Below are positions 51,780 through 64,000 of a stretch of DNA of 64,000 bases, piece after piece; position 1 is the first letter of the stretch, and every line of letters starts with the position of its first letter. Where the stretch lies: contig CALXXX010000024.1 of assembly GCA_944392795.1 (NCBI GenBank), positions 215-64,214 of the forward strand, written 5' to 3'. The notes under the pieces were generated by a model. It was not told the DNA's origin and searched no databases. It worked only from the letters and a program-made list of their open reading frames with translations. The stretch is from an uncultured Alphaproteobacteria bacterium (GTDB lineage: Bacteria > Pseudomonadota > Alphaproteobacteria > CAAHEQ01 > UBA3637). Made by a program: the position numbers and the translations under genes.

Positions 51780-52184
51780 ATGAAAAATACTCAACAAGGT
51801 CGTTCTATGATTGAAATGCTCGGCGTTTTAGCCATTATCGGTGTTTTGTCCATCGGTGGCTTGGCTGGTTACACAATGGCGATGAACCGCCACAGAGCAA
51901 ACCAAATTTTGGACTATGTCTCTCGTGCTGTTGTTATTGCTCAAACAAAGGGCGATGGTGCACAATCCATCGATGATACTTGCCAAAACATTTTGGATGG
52001 TGAAGCAGTTCCTGTCTCTGGCATGACTTGCGAAGTAGATCGTACAGCTGGTATCGATCAAAATACAACAGTCACAGTTGGTGGTGTTAATGAACGTATT
52101 GCTGCTGCTTTAGCAAACCGCTCCGGCAACCAAGTAACAATTACATCCACTTCAAATGGTGCTAATTTCACATTCATGAATTAA
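51780..52184 (+). CDS. Type IV pilin-like protein, copy 1
   Basis: QQG|RSMIEMLGVLAIIGVLSIGGLAGY; 134 aa; one Cys pair. Confidence 0.88.
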   Translation: MKNTQQGRSMIEMLGVLAIIGVLSIGGLAGYTMAMNRHRANQILDYVSRAVVIAQTKGDGAQSIDDTCQNILDGEAVPVSGMTCEVDRTAGIDQNTTVTVGGVNERIAAALANRSGNQVTITSTSNGANFTFMN

Positions 52185-52206
52185 TTTTCTGAAAGGATTT
52201 TTAAAA

Positions 52207-52614
52207 ATGAAGAATACTCAACAAGGTCGTTCTATGATTGAAATGCTCGGCGTTTTAGCCATTATCGGTGTTTTGTCCATCGGTGGCTTAGCCGGTTACA
52301 CAATGGCCATGAACCGTCACAGAGCAAATCAAATCTTGGACTATGTCTCTCGTGCTGTTGTGATCGCTCAAACAAAGGGTGATGGAACACAGGAAATTTC
52401 GAATGAAAATTGCTCTACCATTTTAGATGGTGAAGATGTTCCAGTCTCCGGCATGGGATGTACAGTGAACAAAACAGCTGGCTATGCAAATATCACTGTT
52501 TCTGTAACAAATGTTAACAGCCGTATTGCAGCTGCTTTACAAAATCGTTCCGGTAACCAAGTAACGATTACATCTACTTCAAACAGTGCTGCTTTCACTT
52601 TTGCAAGTTCATAG
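52207..52614 (+). CDS. Type IV pilin-like protein, copy 2
   Basis: First 60 aa identical to copy 1; diverged C-terminal half; same AAAGGATTTTTAAA leader. Confidence 0.88.
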   Translation: MKNTQQGRSMIEMLGVLAIIGVLSIGGLAGYTMAMNRHRANQILDYVSRAVVIAQTKGDGTQEISNENCSTILDGEDVPVSGMGCTVNKTAGYANITVSVTNVNSRIAAALQNRSGNQVTITSTSNSAAFTFASS

Positions 52615-54302: not shown

Positions 54303-57270
<2,968 letters not shown>

Positions 57271-57274
<4 letters not shown>

Positions 57275-59115
57275 TTCTTCACTTTTTTATCCATATAGTC
57301 ACTCACAAGCTCTTTTAATGTCTCATCTAATTCTTTTTCTAAAGAAGTTGATAACTTAGATGCTTTATTGATTTCTTCTAAAAGATAAGGTTGATTAAGA
57401 CGAATTTGCTCTAACATTTTTGTTTCAAAATCAGGAATATCTGATGGCTCCATCGAAGATAAATACCCTTTTACAACAGCATAAAGAGAAATAAACTCTT
57501 CCTCAAATGACAAAGGTTGATGAAGCTTTTGTTTAAGTACCTCTGTCATTCGAACACCTTTACGCAATAATTCTTGAGTTGTCTCCTCTAAATCAGAAGC
57601 AATTTGCGCAAAAGAAAGCATCTCACGATATTGAGACAAGTCTAATTTCATAGAGCCGGAAATTTTTGCTAAAAGAGGACGTTGAGCTTTAGAGCCTACT
57701 CGACTGACAGATAAACCGACATTAACAGCCGGACGAACGCCTTGATGAAATAATCCGCTTTCCAAAAAAATTTGCCCATCTGTAATAGAAATGACATTTG
57801 TCGGAATATACGCAGATACATCCCCTTCTTGCGTTTCAACAACCGGTATAGCTGTTAAAGAACCTCCACCCTTTTTGTCACTCATCATCGCAGCTCGCTC
57901 TAACAGCCTGGAATGTAGATAGAAAATATCCCCAGGATAAGCTTCTCGACCAGGAGGCCGCCGCAGTAATAATGAAATTTGACGATAAGCATTTGCATGC
58001 TTTGATAAATCGTCCAGAAAAACAATAGCATTCATCCCTTGGTCACGAAAATATTCTCCAATTGTCATCCCCGTAAACGGAGCCAAATATTGTAAAGAAG
58101 CCATATCAGAGGCTGACGCTAATACAATGGTCGTATAAGCCATAGCTCCTTCATTTTGTAAAATGCGTTGCACCTCTGCAACTGTTGACTGCTTTTGCCC
58201 GATAGCAACATAAATACAATAAACTTTTTCCTTTTCGCTTTTGGCTTGTTCATTCACTCTTTTTTGATTTAAAATACTATCAATAATCAAGGATGTTTTT
58301 CCGGTTTGACGATCCCCCACGATTAATTCCCGTTGTCCCAGTCCTATTGGAACAAGAGCATCTATCACTTTAATACCCGTTTGAAAGGGAATTTTTACCG
58401 GCTGACGTTCAATAATACCCGGAACAGATGCCTCTAAAGGCATCTTAGTTGTTGCCTTTAATTCTCCAGCATCATCAATAGGCTCCCCTAAAGCATTTAC
58501 AACTCTGCCAATCAATTCTTTCCCAACAAAAACCTTAGGAACATCACCCGTTTGAACAGCTAAATCGCCTTCTTCCAATTTCGAGCTGTTAGACAACAAA
58601 ACAACATCTGAATATTCCGGATTTAAATTAAAAACGATTCCCTTAATCTTATTTGAAAAGTCTATAAGTTCTCCCGCTCGCGTCCGTTTCATCCCAGATA
58701 CGCGAACTATACCATCTTTAATCGAAACAACACGTCCTATTTGCTTAACTTTCGGATGAACACTTTTTTCCTCCGCTAATCTTTTAAGCAAATGATCAAA
58801 TGCGCCAGATGATAGTTCTGTCAAAGAAACTTTACCTAAAACTTCTTGAAGTTGATACAACTTTTCTTTAACAGAAGCATCAATTAAGGAAGAGCCTATT
58901 TGTAACTGAAAACCACCCAATAAAGAAGGATCAATTTTAATATTTAACAAAGCTTTTTTGACATGCAGCGATTGTGAAACAAGTTCACTGATCTGCAACT
59001 GTTGCCTTTTATTGAGTGCGTGAGACGTAATAATATCAACATATAATTCCTCGCAAAGGAAAGTCTCTTTTTTAGAGTGTTGCTTCTTATTTTTTGTCTG
59101 TTTTTCTACAACCAT
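57271..59115 (-). CDS. atpH/atpA: Fusion of ATP synthase delta C-terminal domain and alpha subunit (614 aa)
   Basis: Residues ~24-93 carry delta/OSCP C-domain motifs (IITSHAL, IDPSLLGGFQLQIGSSLIDASV). The rest is alpha (GDRQTGKT, PPGREAYPGD, GLSVSRVG). Confidence 0.92.
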
Positions 59116-62513: not shown

Positions 62514-64000
62514 ATGTCTAATATCAGTTATAAAACACAAAAAGGTTCTTTAATGATTGAAGTTATCGCCGTTTTGGGATTGCTTGCTTTAATCACGCCT
62601 CTTTTATTCCAACAAATTGCACGCCGCAATGAAGAAATTATCAACACACAAATAGCGACAGAAGTCAGAGCTGTTAAAGATGCTGTTGCTGCATACATTC
62701 AAGCAAATGAAAATCAAATTGCTCGTAATTGCGGCCTTACAGATGAAAATGGAACTTATATTGCGACACCTGATGGAGAAATCTATGCATGCGATGCCAT
62801 CGGTTCTGCCGAGTTTATTCCTTTCTTTAGCGGAATCAGCGGTGTATTATCAGACTATAATTATGAGTTCTATGGTTACACGATCCCAAGTCGATCAGAC
62901 AGCGCCGGAAATGTATCGGATTATCGTCCTGTGATTTATGCGACGATTAGTAGAAATGCTGGAGAAAACTTTACTTTAAGACAAGCCGCTCGAATTGCTT
63001 CGTTAATCGGTCTAGACGGAGGTGTTGTCGTTGAAGATCCTGATGTCCCCTCCCAAAGAATTATCAGTGGCATACAAGGTGCTTGGGAATTAGATACAAC
63101 TCTCCCCCTCAACACAATCGTTGCTGTCACAGCATTCAATGACGCAACAAATTCAGCTATTTTAAAAGATGTTAAACTAGAACACTTCCAAGGACAAACC
63201 ATGCAAGCAGATACAGCCGTTGCTACTCGTATGAATGTCAGAGAATTTTTATCCATCGGACCTAATAATATAACCTCTTGCATTGAAAACTATGGAAACA
63301 ATACAATCCGCGTAAAGTATGGACAAACAGAAGAGGATTTAACAGCAGATCCGGCTATTTCTCCAGAATGTGCTCCATTGTTCGAAGTGAATGGAGATAC
63401 AGGCGTTGTTTATATCCATAATGGACAAATTCGTACCGGTCAAAAGATAGAAGCTTCTCAATCTACAGCTGGAGAAACACGCGAGACAAATGCAGATGGA
63501 ACACCTAAGTATGATGAATATCAATTGGATCCTGCTTATACTTCCGTGATGAATGACATTAAATTGACCTCTCGAGGCGGAGCTCGACTCAGCGATATTT
63601 TACCTAACTATGTTTTAAAAGATATTTATTATGCAAGCACCTCAACTTCTGATGGAGCGAATGTATCCGATGTCACTTATCCTGGATTATCGGGACATAC
63701 CATTACAGGAAATCCTTGGACTGTTCCTATCCCTGAATGTCCGGTAGGATACGCCCCTGCTATCACAGTATCTCCTTCACTTATTCAAGGTGCCTTAATG
63801 TATACCTTTCCTGAAGAAATAACGGAAGTTAACACAAAAGGTTTTGCTAAAGCCAGCGGTGCTTATCGTTTTCTAATCTCAGAAAAAGAAGCTGTTAAAA
63901 AAGAGGCCCCAAACGCGACAGGAAACTGGTCCATTACGGTTCAATTTTGGCATCCTGATAAATACTGGACAGCAGCAGGTAATGTTTTTCGATCACTTAT
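62514..64000 (+). CDS. Prepilin-like, shufflon-PilV-like adhesin (3' end outside the window)
   Basis: Translated by hand; absent from the ORF track because there is no stop. MSNISYKTQKG|SLMIEVIAVLGLL, AARIASLIGLDGG, GIQGAW, VPIPECPVGYAPAI; open to the window end. Confidence 0.8.
   Translation, partial: MSNISYKTQKGSLMIEVIAVLGLLALITPLLFQQIARRNEEIINTQIATEVRAVKDAVAAYIQANENQIARNCGLTDENGTYIATPDGEIYACDAIGSAEFIPFFSGISGVLSDYNYEFYGYTIPSRSDSAGNVSDYRPVIYATISRNAGENFTLRQAARIASLIGLDGGVVVEDPDVPSQRIISGIQGAWELDTTLPLNTIVAVTAFNDATNSAILKDVKLEHFQGQTMQADTAVATRMNVREFLSIGPNNITSCIENYGNNTIRVKYGQTEEDLTADPAISPECAPLFEVNGDTGVVYIHNGQIRTGQKIEASQSTAGETRETNADGTPKYDEYQLDPAYTSVMNDIKLTSRGGARLSDILPNYVLKDIYYASTSTSDGANVSDVTYPGLSGHTITGNPWTVPIPECPVGYAPAITVSPSLIQGALMYTFPEEITEVNTKGFAKASGAYRFLISEKEAVKKEAPNATGNWSITVQFWHPDKYWTAAGNVFRSL

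What the first reader, a model, noticed from the sequence alone, without database searches (positions are those of the whole stretch)
57271..59115. ATP synthase delta C-domain fused to alpha, with the delta N-domain deleted
Seen: the first gene of the F1 operon has its own promoter and SD, encodes only the b-binding C-terminal half of delta, and runs in frame into a full-length alpha. No delta N-domain is encoded upstream. Established: the delta N-domain clamps alpha N-termini, F1 has 3 alpha per 1 delta, and the fusion I know of is b-delta in mycobacteria. Inference: a covalent link replaces the clamp. If all three alphas carry it, the enzyme could dock up to three peripheral stalks, as V-type ATPases do. 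The clean domain loss argues against a sequencing artefact.
Basis: partly seen in the sequence, partly recalled or inferred. Interest (0 to 1): 0.82.

Follow-up and report, generated by a model that had tools for sequence, protein, structure and literature searches.

The report
Natural delta-C-domain/alpha ATP synthase fusion
This uncultured gut alphaproteobacterium, like its whole order, makes the ATP synthase alpha subunit with only the stalk-binding half of subunit delta fused to its front, the same design that engineers built in 2025 to give the enzyme up to three stator stalks; it is real and conserved, but the design has already been noted in print for another bacterium.

Summary
[quoted passage not shown] I found no delta N-domain anywhere in this 99.4%-complete genome.

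It is not an artefact. About 60 of 80 species genomes of the order carry the same fusion, as do more than 100 protein clusters from independent assemblies. The delta-C part is under strong purifying selection (dN/dS 0.05-0.11).

The fused alphas form one clade. Its sister group is unfused alphaproteobacterial alphas with a normal 184-aa atpH.

The best PDB match for the first 180 residues is chain 9jc1_I, the engineered Bacillus PS3 "deltaDeltaN-alpha" fusion (Ueno et al. 2025). It aligns without a gap across the junction. That enzyme formed up to three stalks and a-subunits and doubled H+/ATP. The same paper already names natural fusions in Acidaminococcus fermentans.

The "own promoter" claim is not supported, and no conserved internal start for a free alpha exists.

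Verdict: a new member (an order of gut Alphaproteobacteria) of a recently recognised, uncharacterised natural kind.

The parts
57271..59115 (-). Fused gene delta(C-domain)-alpha, 614 aa (roughly 68 kDa by my estimate)
   Evidence: ORF; Pfam OSCP plus three alpha domains; TIGR00962 at 689 bits
59121..59125 (-). Shine-Dalgarno-like GGGGA, 6 nt before the ATG
   Evidence: Sequence read
59056..59115 (-). aa 1-20: Lys-rich N-terminal tail, variable across the order and predicted disordered
   Evidence: AF2 pLDDT 34-51; variable in relatives
58834..59055 (-). aa 21-94: delta/OSCP C-terminal domain (four strands plus two helices), the part that binds the b-dimer in solved ATP synthases
   Evidence: PF00213 positions 103-172. 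Aligns to delta C-termini of Paracoccus 5dn6_H, E. coli 5t4o_L and bovine OSCP. AF2 pLDDT 86-90 with E21-30, H36-50, E52-61, E69-73, E76-79, H82-94. dN/dS 0.05-0.11.
58810..58833 (-). aa 95-102: linker (GKVSLTEL), at the position of the engineered GGSGGS linker of 9jc1
   Evidence: Gapless alignment of aa 41-174 to 9jc1_I residues 21-154
58771..58809 (-). aa 103-115: alpha N-terminal helix, retained
   Evidence: AF2 helix 103-115; aligns with alpha residues 2-20 of PS3 inside 9jc1_I
57271..58770 (-). aa 116-614 plus stop: alpha core (beta-barrel, nucleotide-binding and C-terminal domains)
   Evidence: PF02874, PF00006 and PF00306; best full-length PDB sequence matches are mitochondrial alphas, E about 1e-175
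58822..58824 (-). In-frame TTG (codon 98) proposed by another first-stage note as an internal start; not conserved as a start signal
   Evidence: SD duplex -3.7 kcal/mol here; 23% of ordinary internal ATG/GTG/TTG codons reach -4. Two relatives have no start codon at the junction at all.
56195..57274 (-). atpG (gamma), start overlapping the fused gene's stop by 4 nt
   Evidence: PF00231
54730..56217 (-). atpD (beta); has ARSLV where most betas have ARxRV
54303..54761 (-). atpC (epsilon)
   Evidence: PF02823

Best explanation
This is a genuine, functional gene fusion that arose once in the ancestor of an order of uncultured, small-genome gut Alphaproteobacteria.

The ancestral adjacent genes atpH and atpA lie 1 nt apart in the nearest unfused relatives. 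They merged, and the delta N-terminal helical bundle was deleted. That bundle normally sits on the F1 crown and clamps the alpha N-termini.

As a result, every alpha copy carries the delta C-domain, which is the docking site for the C-termini of the b/b' stalk. It is tethered through an 8-residue linker to the retained alpha N-terminal helix.

Shown here:
- the architecture;
- the absence of any delta N-domain in the genome;
- order-wide conservation under purifying selection;
- a junction of the same length as the engineered Bacillus PS3 deltaDeltaN-alpha enzyme.

Inferred:
- The fused domain binds b/b' as in 9JC1, so the covalent link replaces the delta-N clamp as the stator attachment.
- All three alphas are equivalent docking sites, so the enzyme can hold one to three stalks, each bringing an a-subunit.

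How many stalks it holds in the cell is not settled. I put about 0.3 on more than one stalk being the usual state.

The organism lacks the usual respiratory complexes. The enzyme therefore either pumps protons at the expense of ATP or makes ATP from small gradients. In the second case a raised H+/ATP ratio would help.
For: - Architecture.
- No other delta in the genome.
- Normal Fo operon elsewhere (atpI-like, a, c, b' of 167 aa, b of 184 aa), with no delta-N attached to anything.
- About 60 of 80 species genomes of the order, in 15 of 16 genera, have OSCP positions 9x-172 inside 570-640-aa alpha frames. Genomes outside the order have delta frames of about 190-200 aa.
- More than 100 protein clusters at 90% identity, 591-638 aa, carry PF00213 plus the alpha domains. 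They come from NCBI, ENA, Logan and JGI assemblies.
- The fused alphas form one clade (SH-aLRT 94). It is sister to unfused alphas whose locus has a normal 184-aa atpH ending 1 nt before atpA.
- dN/dS is 0.05-0.11 for delta-C and 0.02-0.05 for alpha.
- AF2 predicts the four-strand, two-helix delta-C fold at pLDDT 86-90.
- In Foldseek, 9jc1_I gives the best query TM-score, 0.82 over 580 columns, against 0.70-0.73 for ordinary alphas.
- The sequence alignment to 9jc1_I is gapless across the junction.
- The engineered fusion forms up to three stalks and a-subunits, has H+/ATP of 5.8 against 3.0, and binds b2 in the canonical way: PMC12229609.
- Every genome with a canonical a-subunit also has the fused alpha, except where the assembly is broken. 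Genomes without the fused alpha lack the canonical a as well.
Against:
- Most carriers, including this genome, also have a complete N-type ATPase operon. The fused enzyme therefore need not be the main rotary ATPase. About 20 of 80 order genomes have lost it altogether.
- In this genome's subclade, beta has lost an Arg equivalent to E. coli beta-R246. By my knowledge that residue is a phosphate-binding residue, so catalysis may be altered.
- a, b and b' are single-copy genes in a separate operon, and nothing indicates threefold expression.
- Binding of b/b' to the fused domain is inferred from homology, not shown.
Confidence: 0.85

Rival explanations
1. Single-stalk enzyme. The fusion is real, but only one of the three delta-C domains binds the one b/b' stalk and one a-subunit. 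The other two are idle. On this view the fusion is a neutral ratchet in a reduced genome rather than an adaptation.
For: - There is one gene each for a, b and b'.
- In the engineered enzyme, single-stalk particles were common in cryo-EM (PMC12229609).
- Genome reduction and loss of respiration fit relaxed constraints.
- The canonical enzyme is dispensable in about 20 of 80 relatives.
Against: - With the same design, and with a and b still encoded once each in the operon, the engineered enzyme averaged about two stalks and a-subunits by SDS-PAGE and by H+/ATP.
- No feature is seen here that would block the two other sites.
- The design has been stable across a whole order under purifying selection.
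Confidence: 0.45
2. Native multi-stalk enzyme. Two or three b/b' stalks and a-subunits are the usual state, which multiplies H+/ATP and allows ATP synthesis at low proton-motive force.
For: - The architecture and junction length are the same as in 9JC1, which forms up to three stalks.
- The delta N-domain that breaks threefold symmetry is absent.
- Natural two-stalk, two-a F1Fo exists in Chloroflexus, which has a shortened delta-N (PMC12002316).
- The organism is an anaerobe without the usual pmf generators.
- The c subunit lacks the GxGxGxG packing motif order-wide. From what is known of alkaliphile c-rings, this could mean a wider ring; that link is my inference.
Against: - There are no stoichiometry data.
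- a, b and b' are single genes in another operon.
- A second rotary ATPase is present.
- An earlier scan check of the related b-delta-alpha fusions priced the equivalent claim at 17/100 (an AI note, not evidence).
Confidence: 0.3
3. Two isoforms. An internal start, or proteolysis at the linker, yields free alpha as well as delta-C-alpha, which restores roughly one delta-C per three alphas.
For: - In this genome an in-frame TTG (58824-58822) lies 9 nt after AGGT and would start alpha at its normal N-terminus.
- The same Leu codon is TTG in genus relatives.
Against: - Across 35 distinct loci no start codon position with an SD is conserved at the junction.
- Two loci have no ATG, GTG or TTG there at all, and several have only codons with no SD.
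- The SD energy here (-3.7 kcal/mol) is ordinary for internal codons.
Confidence: 0.1
4. Decaying enzyme. The canonical F1Fo is on its way out in this lineage, the N-ATPase does the work, and the fusion is tolerated damage.
For: - The canonical enzyme is lost in about 20 of 80 relatives.
- Beta has lost an Arg in this subclade.
- Gamma, epsilon and c are divergent.
Against: - All eight genes are intact here.
- dN/dS is well below 1 for delta-C and alpha in every pair tested.
- The a-subunit Arg and the c-subunit Glu are kept.
- The fusion predates the split into the two deep subclades.
Confidence: 0.07
5. Assembly or sequencing artefact that removed a stop codon or part of atpH.
For: None found. 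Reads could not be examined.
Against: The same architecture is present in about 60 species genomes and in more than 100 protein clusters from independent assemblies. The identical protein occurs on two contigs.
Confidence: 0.01

Closest known systems
Engineered Bacillus PS3 deltaDeltaN-alpha fused FoF1 (PDB 9JC1; Ueno et al., Nat Commun 2025, PMC12229609)
   Same: - Delta residues 105-178 only are fused through a short linker to alpha residue 2, with no delta N-domain.
- Our aa 41-174 align without a gap to chain residues 21-154.
- The AF2 model superposes over 580 columns with query TM-score 0.82.
   Different: - It is man-made, in a Firmicute enzyme with a b2 homodimer and a truncated epsilon.
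- Ours is natural and of alphaproteobacterial/mitochondrial type, with a b/b' pair, a 20-residue Lys-rich tail and a natural linker (GKVSLTEL instead of GGSGGS).
- Stalk number is measured there and unknown here.
Natural deltaDeltaN-alpha fusion of Acidaminococcus fermentans (UniProt D2RLW6), plus G4Q3K6 and A0A1I2C5T3, named in the Discussion and Suppl. Fig. 9 of PMC12229609
   Same: As described in the paper, delta and alpha are fused and the delta N-domain is missing. The host is an anaerobic gut bacterium. Its authors predict it to be multi-stalk.
   Different: - It belongs to a different phylum (Negativicutes).
- Our alpha groups with alphaproteobacterial and mitochondrial alphas, so an independent origin is likely.
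- I could not fetch those sequences to compare them directly.
- Neither natural enzyme has been characterised.
[quoted passage not shown]
   Same: It is a natural F-type enzyme in which an altered delta N-domain goes with more than one stalk and more than one a-subunit.
   Different: Delta is a separate subunit there, with a shortened N-domain that dimerises on the crown. There is no fusion to alpha.
Mycobacterial b-delta fusion (e.g. PDB 7JG5 chain d, 445 aa)
   Same: Delta is covalently joined to a neighbouring stator subunit. Its C-terminal domain matches ours weakly (E 0.003).
   Different: Full-length delta is fused to b, not to alpha. There is one copy and one stalk per enzyme.
b-deltaC-alpha triple fusions (744-756 aa) in Clostridia/Oscillospiraceae metagenome genomes
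   Same: A delta C-domain without the N-domain is fused in frame in front of alpha.
   Different: They also carry a membrane-anchored b arm at the N-terminus, with a free b gene just upstream. On the alpha tree they have separate origins. I found no paper on them.
N-type ATPase b subunit of the same genome (257 aa, contig C11)
   Same: It has a delta-C-like domain without a delta N-domain, attached to another stator subunit. Orthologues match OSCP positions 9x-172.
   Different: The domain is attached to b, not alpha. It belongs to a separate operon (beta-epsilon-Q-R-a-c-b-alpha-gamma). The fused alpha scores below the N-ATPase alpha cut-off (530 against 750.5).

Membership tests
F-type ATP synthase subunit alpha (TIGR00962 atpA) | Whole-protein score above the curated cut-off; N-terminal barrel, P-loop nucleotide-binding domain and C-terminal helical domain present | tested here: met
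   688.9 bits against a cut-off of 484.45, positions 9-501 of 503; PF02874, PF00006 and PF00306; GDRQTGKT P-loop in the sequence
F-type ATP synthase subunit delta / OSCP (PF00213) | C-terminal alpha/beta domain (the b-binding part) | tested here: met
   Profile positions 103-172 at aa 24-93, 48.7 bits against 22.3; aligns to solved delta/OSCP C-domains; AF2 fold of four strands and two helices
F-type ATP synthase subunit delta / OSCP (PF00213) | N-terminal helical bundle that binds the alpha N-termini | tested here: not met
   Only 20 residues precede the C-domain. No match to profile positions 1-100 anywhere in the genome. phmmer/hmmsearch with two N-domains gave a best E of 0.3.
deltaDeltaN-alpha fused FoF1 (engineered 9JC1; natural A. 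fermentans type) | Delta C-domain fused in frame to the alpha N-terminus through a short linker | tested here: met
   Single ORF; gapless alignment across the junction to 9jc1_I; best query TM-score to 9jc1 chains
deltaDeltaN-alpha fused FoF1 (engineered 9JC1; natural A. fermentans type) | No separate full-length delta and no delta N-domain in the genome | tested here: met
   The only other delta-like domain is in the N-ATPase b subunit.
deltaDeltaN-alpha fused FoF1 (engineered 9JC1; natural A. fermentans type) | All alpha copies carry the fusion (no second atpA, no free alpha) | tested here: inconclusive
   There is one canonical atpA; the only other alpha is the N-ATPase alpha. No internal start is conserved. 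Protein-level data are lacking.
deltaDeltaN-alpha fused FoF1 (engineered 9JC1; natural A. fermentans type) | The fused domain binds the b-dimer; more than one stalk and a-subunit per complex; raised H+/ATP | not testable with these tools
   Needs the purified enzyme (cryo-EM, native MS, equilibrium-pmf assay)
N-type ATPase alpha (TIGR03324) | Score above the curated cut-off; operon order beta-epsilon-Q-R-a-c-b-alpha-gamma | tested here: not met
   530 bits against a cut-off of 750.5. The operon here is [deltaC-alpha]-gamma-beta-epsilon. The true N-ATPase operon is on another contig.

The most novel reading that the evidence does not exclude
A whole order of uncultured gut Alphaproteobacteria (relatives of the mitochondrial lineage, here without a respiratory chain) natively runs a near-threefold-symmetric F-type ATP synthase with two or three b/b' stalks and a-subunits. 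Each stalk docks on an alpha-borne delta C-domain. The H+/ATP ratio would then be two to three times c/3, and the enzyme could make ATP from very small gradients. The glycine-motif-less c subunit may be part of the same adaptation.
Probability: 0.3. Interest if true: 0.85.

Novelty: new member of a known kind. Interest (0 to 1): 0.55.

Why it matters
A single peripheral stalk and a single a-subunit were taken as fixed features of F-type ATP synthases until 2025. In that year an engineered deltaDeltaN-alpha enzyme and the Chloroflexus structure showed that stalk number, and with it H+/ATP, can vary.

Natural enzymes with the engineered design have only been mentioned in passing and none has been studied. 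This order offers about 60 species' worth of natural, selected variants of that design in an alphaproteobacterial (mitochondrion-like) background.

The hosts are anaerobes with no obvious respiratory proton pump, which is the setting where a high H+/ATP ratio is predicted to pay. The operons are small enough to express in an E. coli strain lacking its own ATP synthase. Whether multi-stalk F1Fo exists in nature is therefore directly testable with them.

Tried and rejected
- **Internal start giving free alpha:** tested on 35 distinct loci. No conserved start or SD was found, so it is rejected as a family-wide mechanism. It is not excluded for this species.
- **Delta N-domain encoded elsewhere or attached to b/b':** rejected.
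- **The roughly 260-aa second OSCP hits in relatives as a separate delta:** they are the b subunit of the N-ATPase operon.
- **Fusion inherited from an N-ATPase:** rejected. The alpha scores below the N-type cut-off and sits in an atpAGDC operon.
- **G007 as a relative with a truncated delta-C:** the region is a run of N in that assembly, so it is uninformative.
- **P0094, an apparently unfused alpha inside the fused clade:** not followed up. It may be a cut or mis-started gene call.
- **Direct comparison with A. fermentans D2RLW6:** P0373, labelled Selenomonadaceae, turned out to be a truncated b-deltaC-alpha.
- **Literature searches for this fusion in gut Alphaproteobacteria:** nothing found.
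- **GTDB name of the order:** I suspect RF32/CAG-239. This is my guess only; the records are titled 'uncultured Alphaproteobacteria bacterium'.
Full report
**Observation**

The window holds an F1 operon on the minus strand. It consists of a 614-aa ORF (57271-59115), gamma (56195-57274, start overlapping the previous stop by 4 nt), beta (54730-56217) and epsilon (54303-54761).

- Pfam places OSCP/delta profile positions 103-172 of 172 at residues 24-93 of the first ORF (E 1.2e-12).
- The three alpha domains sit at residues 123-602.
- TIGR00962 (atpA) matches residues 108-607 with 689 bits, against a cut-off of 484.
- Only 20 Lys-rich residues precede the delta part.
- The start ATG at 59115 has a GGGGA motif 6 nt upstream.
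- The gene 68 nt upstream is a histidine-phosphatase-family protein.

The observation therefore stands as described, with one exception. The sigma-70 consensus scan finds no promoter-like site in the 68-nt gap, so 'own promoter' is unsupported.

**Is the delta N-domain anywhere else?**

The window lies in a 1.29-Mb, 41-contig genome that is 99.4% complete.

- PF00213 matches this genome only once, at this gene, and only over profile positions 103-172.
- phmmer and hmmsearch with the N-domains of two normal alphaproteobacterial deltas, run against all six-frame ORFs, gave nothing better than E 0.3.
- The canonical Fo operon is on another contig. It encodes an AtpI-like protein, a, c, b' (167 aa) and b (184 aa), all of ordinary length and with no extra domain.
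- A second, complete N-type ATPase operon (beta-epsilon-Q-R-a-c-b-alpha-gamma) lies on contig C11.
- The roughly 260-aa second OSCP hits seen in relatives are the b subunit of that N-type operon.

**Not an artefact, and not confined to this genome**

- Among the 80 species genomes of the family, which is also the whole order in this collection, about 60 have OSCP positions 9x-172 inside open frames of 570-640 aa. These span 15 of 16 genera.
- Genomes of other families in the class have delta in frames of about 190-200 aa.
- ORFs read from eleven loci show the same layout: a short basic tail, delta-C, linker, alpha.
- The protein database holds more than 100 clusters at 90% identity, 591-638 aa long, with PF00213 plus the alpha domains. 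They come from NCBI, ENA, Logan and JGI assemblies and are annotated simply as 'F0F1 ATP synthase subunit alpha [Alphaproteobacteria bacterium]'.
- Close relatives are gut metagenome bins.

**Selection and origin**

Nei-Gojobori dN/dS was computed for pairs of relatives whose dS is not saturated:

| Region | dN/dS |
|---|---|
| delta-C domain | 0.05-0.11 |
| linker plus alpha N-helix | 0.03-0.45 |
| alpha core | 0.02-0.05 |

On a maximum-likelihood tree of the alpha part, the fused proteins form one clade (SH-aLRT 94) with two deep subclades (each 100). The clade is sister to unfused alphaproteobacterial alphas. In one of those unfused relatives the locus reads priA, atpH (184 aa, full OSCP), atpA (starting 1 nt after the atpH stop), atpG, atpD, atpC.

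The simplest history is therefore loss of the atpH stop plus deletion of the N-domain, once, at the base of the order.

The best full-length PDB sequence matches are mitochondrial alphas. This fits alphaproteobacterial ancestry rather than transfer from Firmicutes.

**Structure and the key comparison**

AlphaFold2, run with 44 family sequences, gives mean pLDDT 79 and pTM 0.79.

- Residues 21-94 form a four-stranded sheet with two helices at pLDDT 86-90.
- An alpha N-terminal helix follows at residues 103-115.
- The beta-barrel begins at residue 123.

This is the delta-C fold described for solved enzymes (PMC12002316).

Searching the PDB by sequence with the N-terminal part turned up chain 9jc1_I, named 'ATP synthase delta subunit, ATP synthase subunit alpha'.

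- With the first 180 residues as query, 9jc1_I is the best match in the PDB (E 5.6e-14).
- Residues 41-174 align to chain residues 21-154 without a single gap.
- The natural linker GKVSLTEL therefore lies exactly where the engineered GGSGGS linker is.
- By fold, the 9jc1 chains give the highest query-normalised TM-score: 0.82 over 580 columns, against 0.70-0.73 over about 480-510 columns for ordinary alphas.

**What 9JC1 is**

Ueno et al. (Nat Commun 2025, PMC12229609) deleted residues 2-104 of Bacillus PS3 delta and fused residues 105-178 to the alpha N-terminus. Their reasoning was that the delta N-domain occupies the threefold axis and limits the enzyme to one stalk.

Their results:

- The enzyme bound b2 in the canonical way.
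- It formed one, two or three stalks, each with an a-subunit.
- It averaged about two stalks by SDS-PAGE.
- Its H+/ATP was 5.8 against 3.0 for the wild type.
- It made ATP at half the pmf.

Their Discussion states that the Acidaminococcus fermentans operon has the same fusion with the N-domain missing (UniProt D2RLW6, Suppl. Fig. 9). It also names two further UniProt entries and calls a natural multi-stalk enzyme 'highly likely'.

A natural two-stalk, two-a enzyme with a shortened delta-N was solved in Chloroflexus the same year (PMC12002316).

The architecture itself, however, is already in print for another phylum.

**Tests of the rivals**

*Free alpha from an internal start.* I scanned the junction of 35 distinct loci for in-frame ATG, GTG or TTG codons and scored the upstream SD pairing.

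- No position is conserved.
- Two loci have no candidate start codon at all.
- Several loci have only candidates without an SD.
- The TTG of this genome (58824-58822) pairs at -3.7 kcal/mol. That is ordinary for internal codons: 23% of them reach -4.

*Decay.* All genes are intact and under purifying selection. The a-subunit Arg and the c-subunit Glu are kept. Three points argue the other way:

- About 20 of 80 relatives have lost the whole canonical enzyme and keep only the N-ATPase.
- Most carriers have both enzymes.
- In this genome's subclade, beta reads ARxLV where the other subclade and most betas read ARxRV.

*Stalk number.* Nothing in the sequence measures it. a, b and b' are single genes in another operon.

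**Context**

The genome has no match to cytochrome bd (PF01654), NuoH (PF00146), Rnf/Nqr (PF02508) or heme-copper oxidase (PF00115), while the control genomes do match. This looks like a fermentative anaerobe without the usual proton pumps.

The enzyme then either hydrolyses ATP to build a gradient or harvests small gradients. Only in the second case would a raised H+/ATP ratio be an obvious advantage. This step is inference.

**Wider picture**

An exhaustive profile-free search with residues 1-200 also found other fusion architectures.

- Triple fusions of b, delta-C and alpha (744-756 aa) occur in many Clostridia/Oscillospiraceae metagenome genomes, with a free b gene just upstream.
- One triple fusion of alphaproteobacterial type was found.
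- Two full-length delta-alpha fusions were found, of 676 and 699 aa.

On the alpha tree these arise separately from the clade studied here.

Earlier notes of this scan report the same three architectures in other genomes and the same closest-known enzyme. I treated those notes as leads. What I state here rests on my own calls.

**Verdict**

The fusion is real, ancient and functional. It is the natural counterpart of a design whose consequences are known from engineering. It is a new member, in a new phylum-level setting, of a kind already noted in the literature but never characterised. Whether the native enzyme has more than one stalk is open. I put that at about 0.3.

Noticed in passing
G000 contig C5 (outside the window); loci L062-L091: The canonical c subunit of the whole order lacks the GxGxGxG helix-1 packing motif. 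This genome has AVAKWLA; other genera have GVAKGVA or AAAKGIA. It also has a conserved Lys about 17 residues before the RNP loop. The ion-binding Glu and the a-subunit Arg are kept. This might mean a wider c-ring; untested.
   Followed up: partly
window 55486-55530 (beta); loci L092-L121: Beta reads [17 protein letters not shown]. The second Arg of ARxRV is Leu in genera g1, g14, g11 and g6, but is kept in the other deep subclade. It is therefore a fixed, subclade-wide change, not an error.
   Followed up: partly
G000 contig C11, about 20.7-27.4 kb in the reverse-strand coordinates: A complete N-type ATPase operon (beta-epsilon-Q-R-a-c-b-alpha-gamma), with a Na+-type c subunit (VETSALYS) and a 257-aa b subunit carrying a delta-C-like end. 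It is present in most genomes of the order, and it is the only rotary ATPase in about 20 of 80.
   Followed up: partly
whole genome G000: No match to cytochrome bd, NuoH, Rnf/Nqr or heme-copper oxidase families in a 99.4%-complete genome. This is an alphaproteobacterium without the usual respiratory chain.
   Followed up: partly
L060 6001-8235; L061 6001-8262; L057 91-2379: Triple fusions of b, delta-C and alpha (744-762 aa). Many Clostridia/Oscillospiraceae metagenome genomes have them, with operon (I)-a-c-b-[b-deltaC-alpha]-gamma-beta-epsilon. One alphaproteobacterial-type contig also has one. Here each alpha would carry its own membrane-anchored stalk arm.
   Followed up: partly
proteins P0164 (676 aa) and P0250 (699 aa): Full-length delta (OSCP positions 10-172) fused to alpha in other metagenomic lineages. 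These are possible intermediates of the same route.
   Followed up: no
window 51780-52614 and 62514-64000: Two tandem type IV pilin-like genes with identical N-terminal halves, and a large prepilin-like ORF running off the window end.
   Followed up: no
L122 (G007:C6:28500-31200): In this relative the delta-C coding region is a run of N in the assembly. The 538-aa 'short' alpha (P0052) is therefore an assembly effect, not a reversion.
   Followed up: yes
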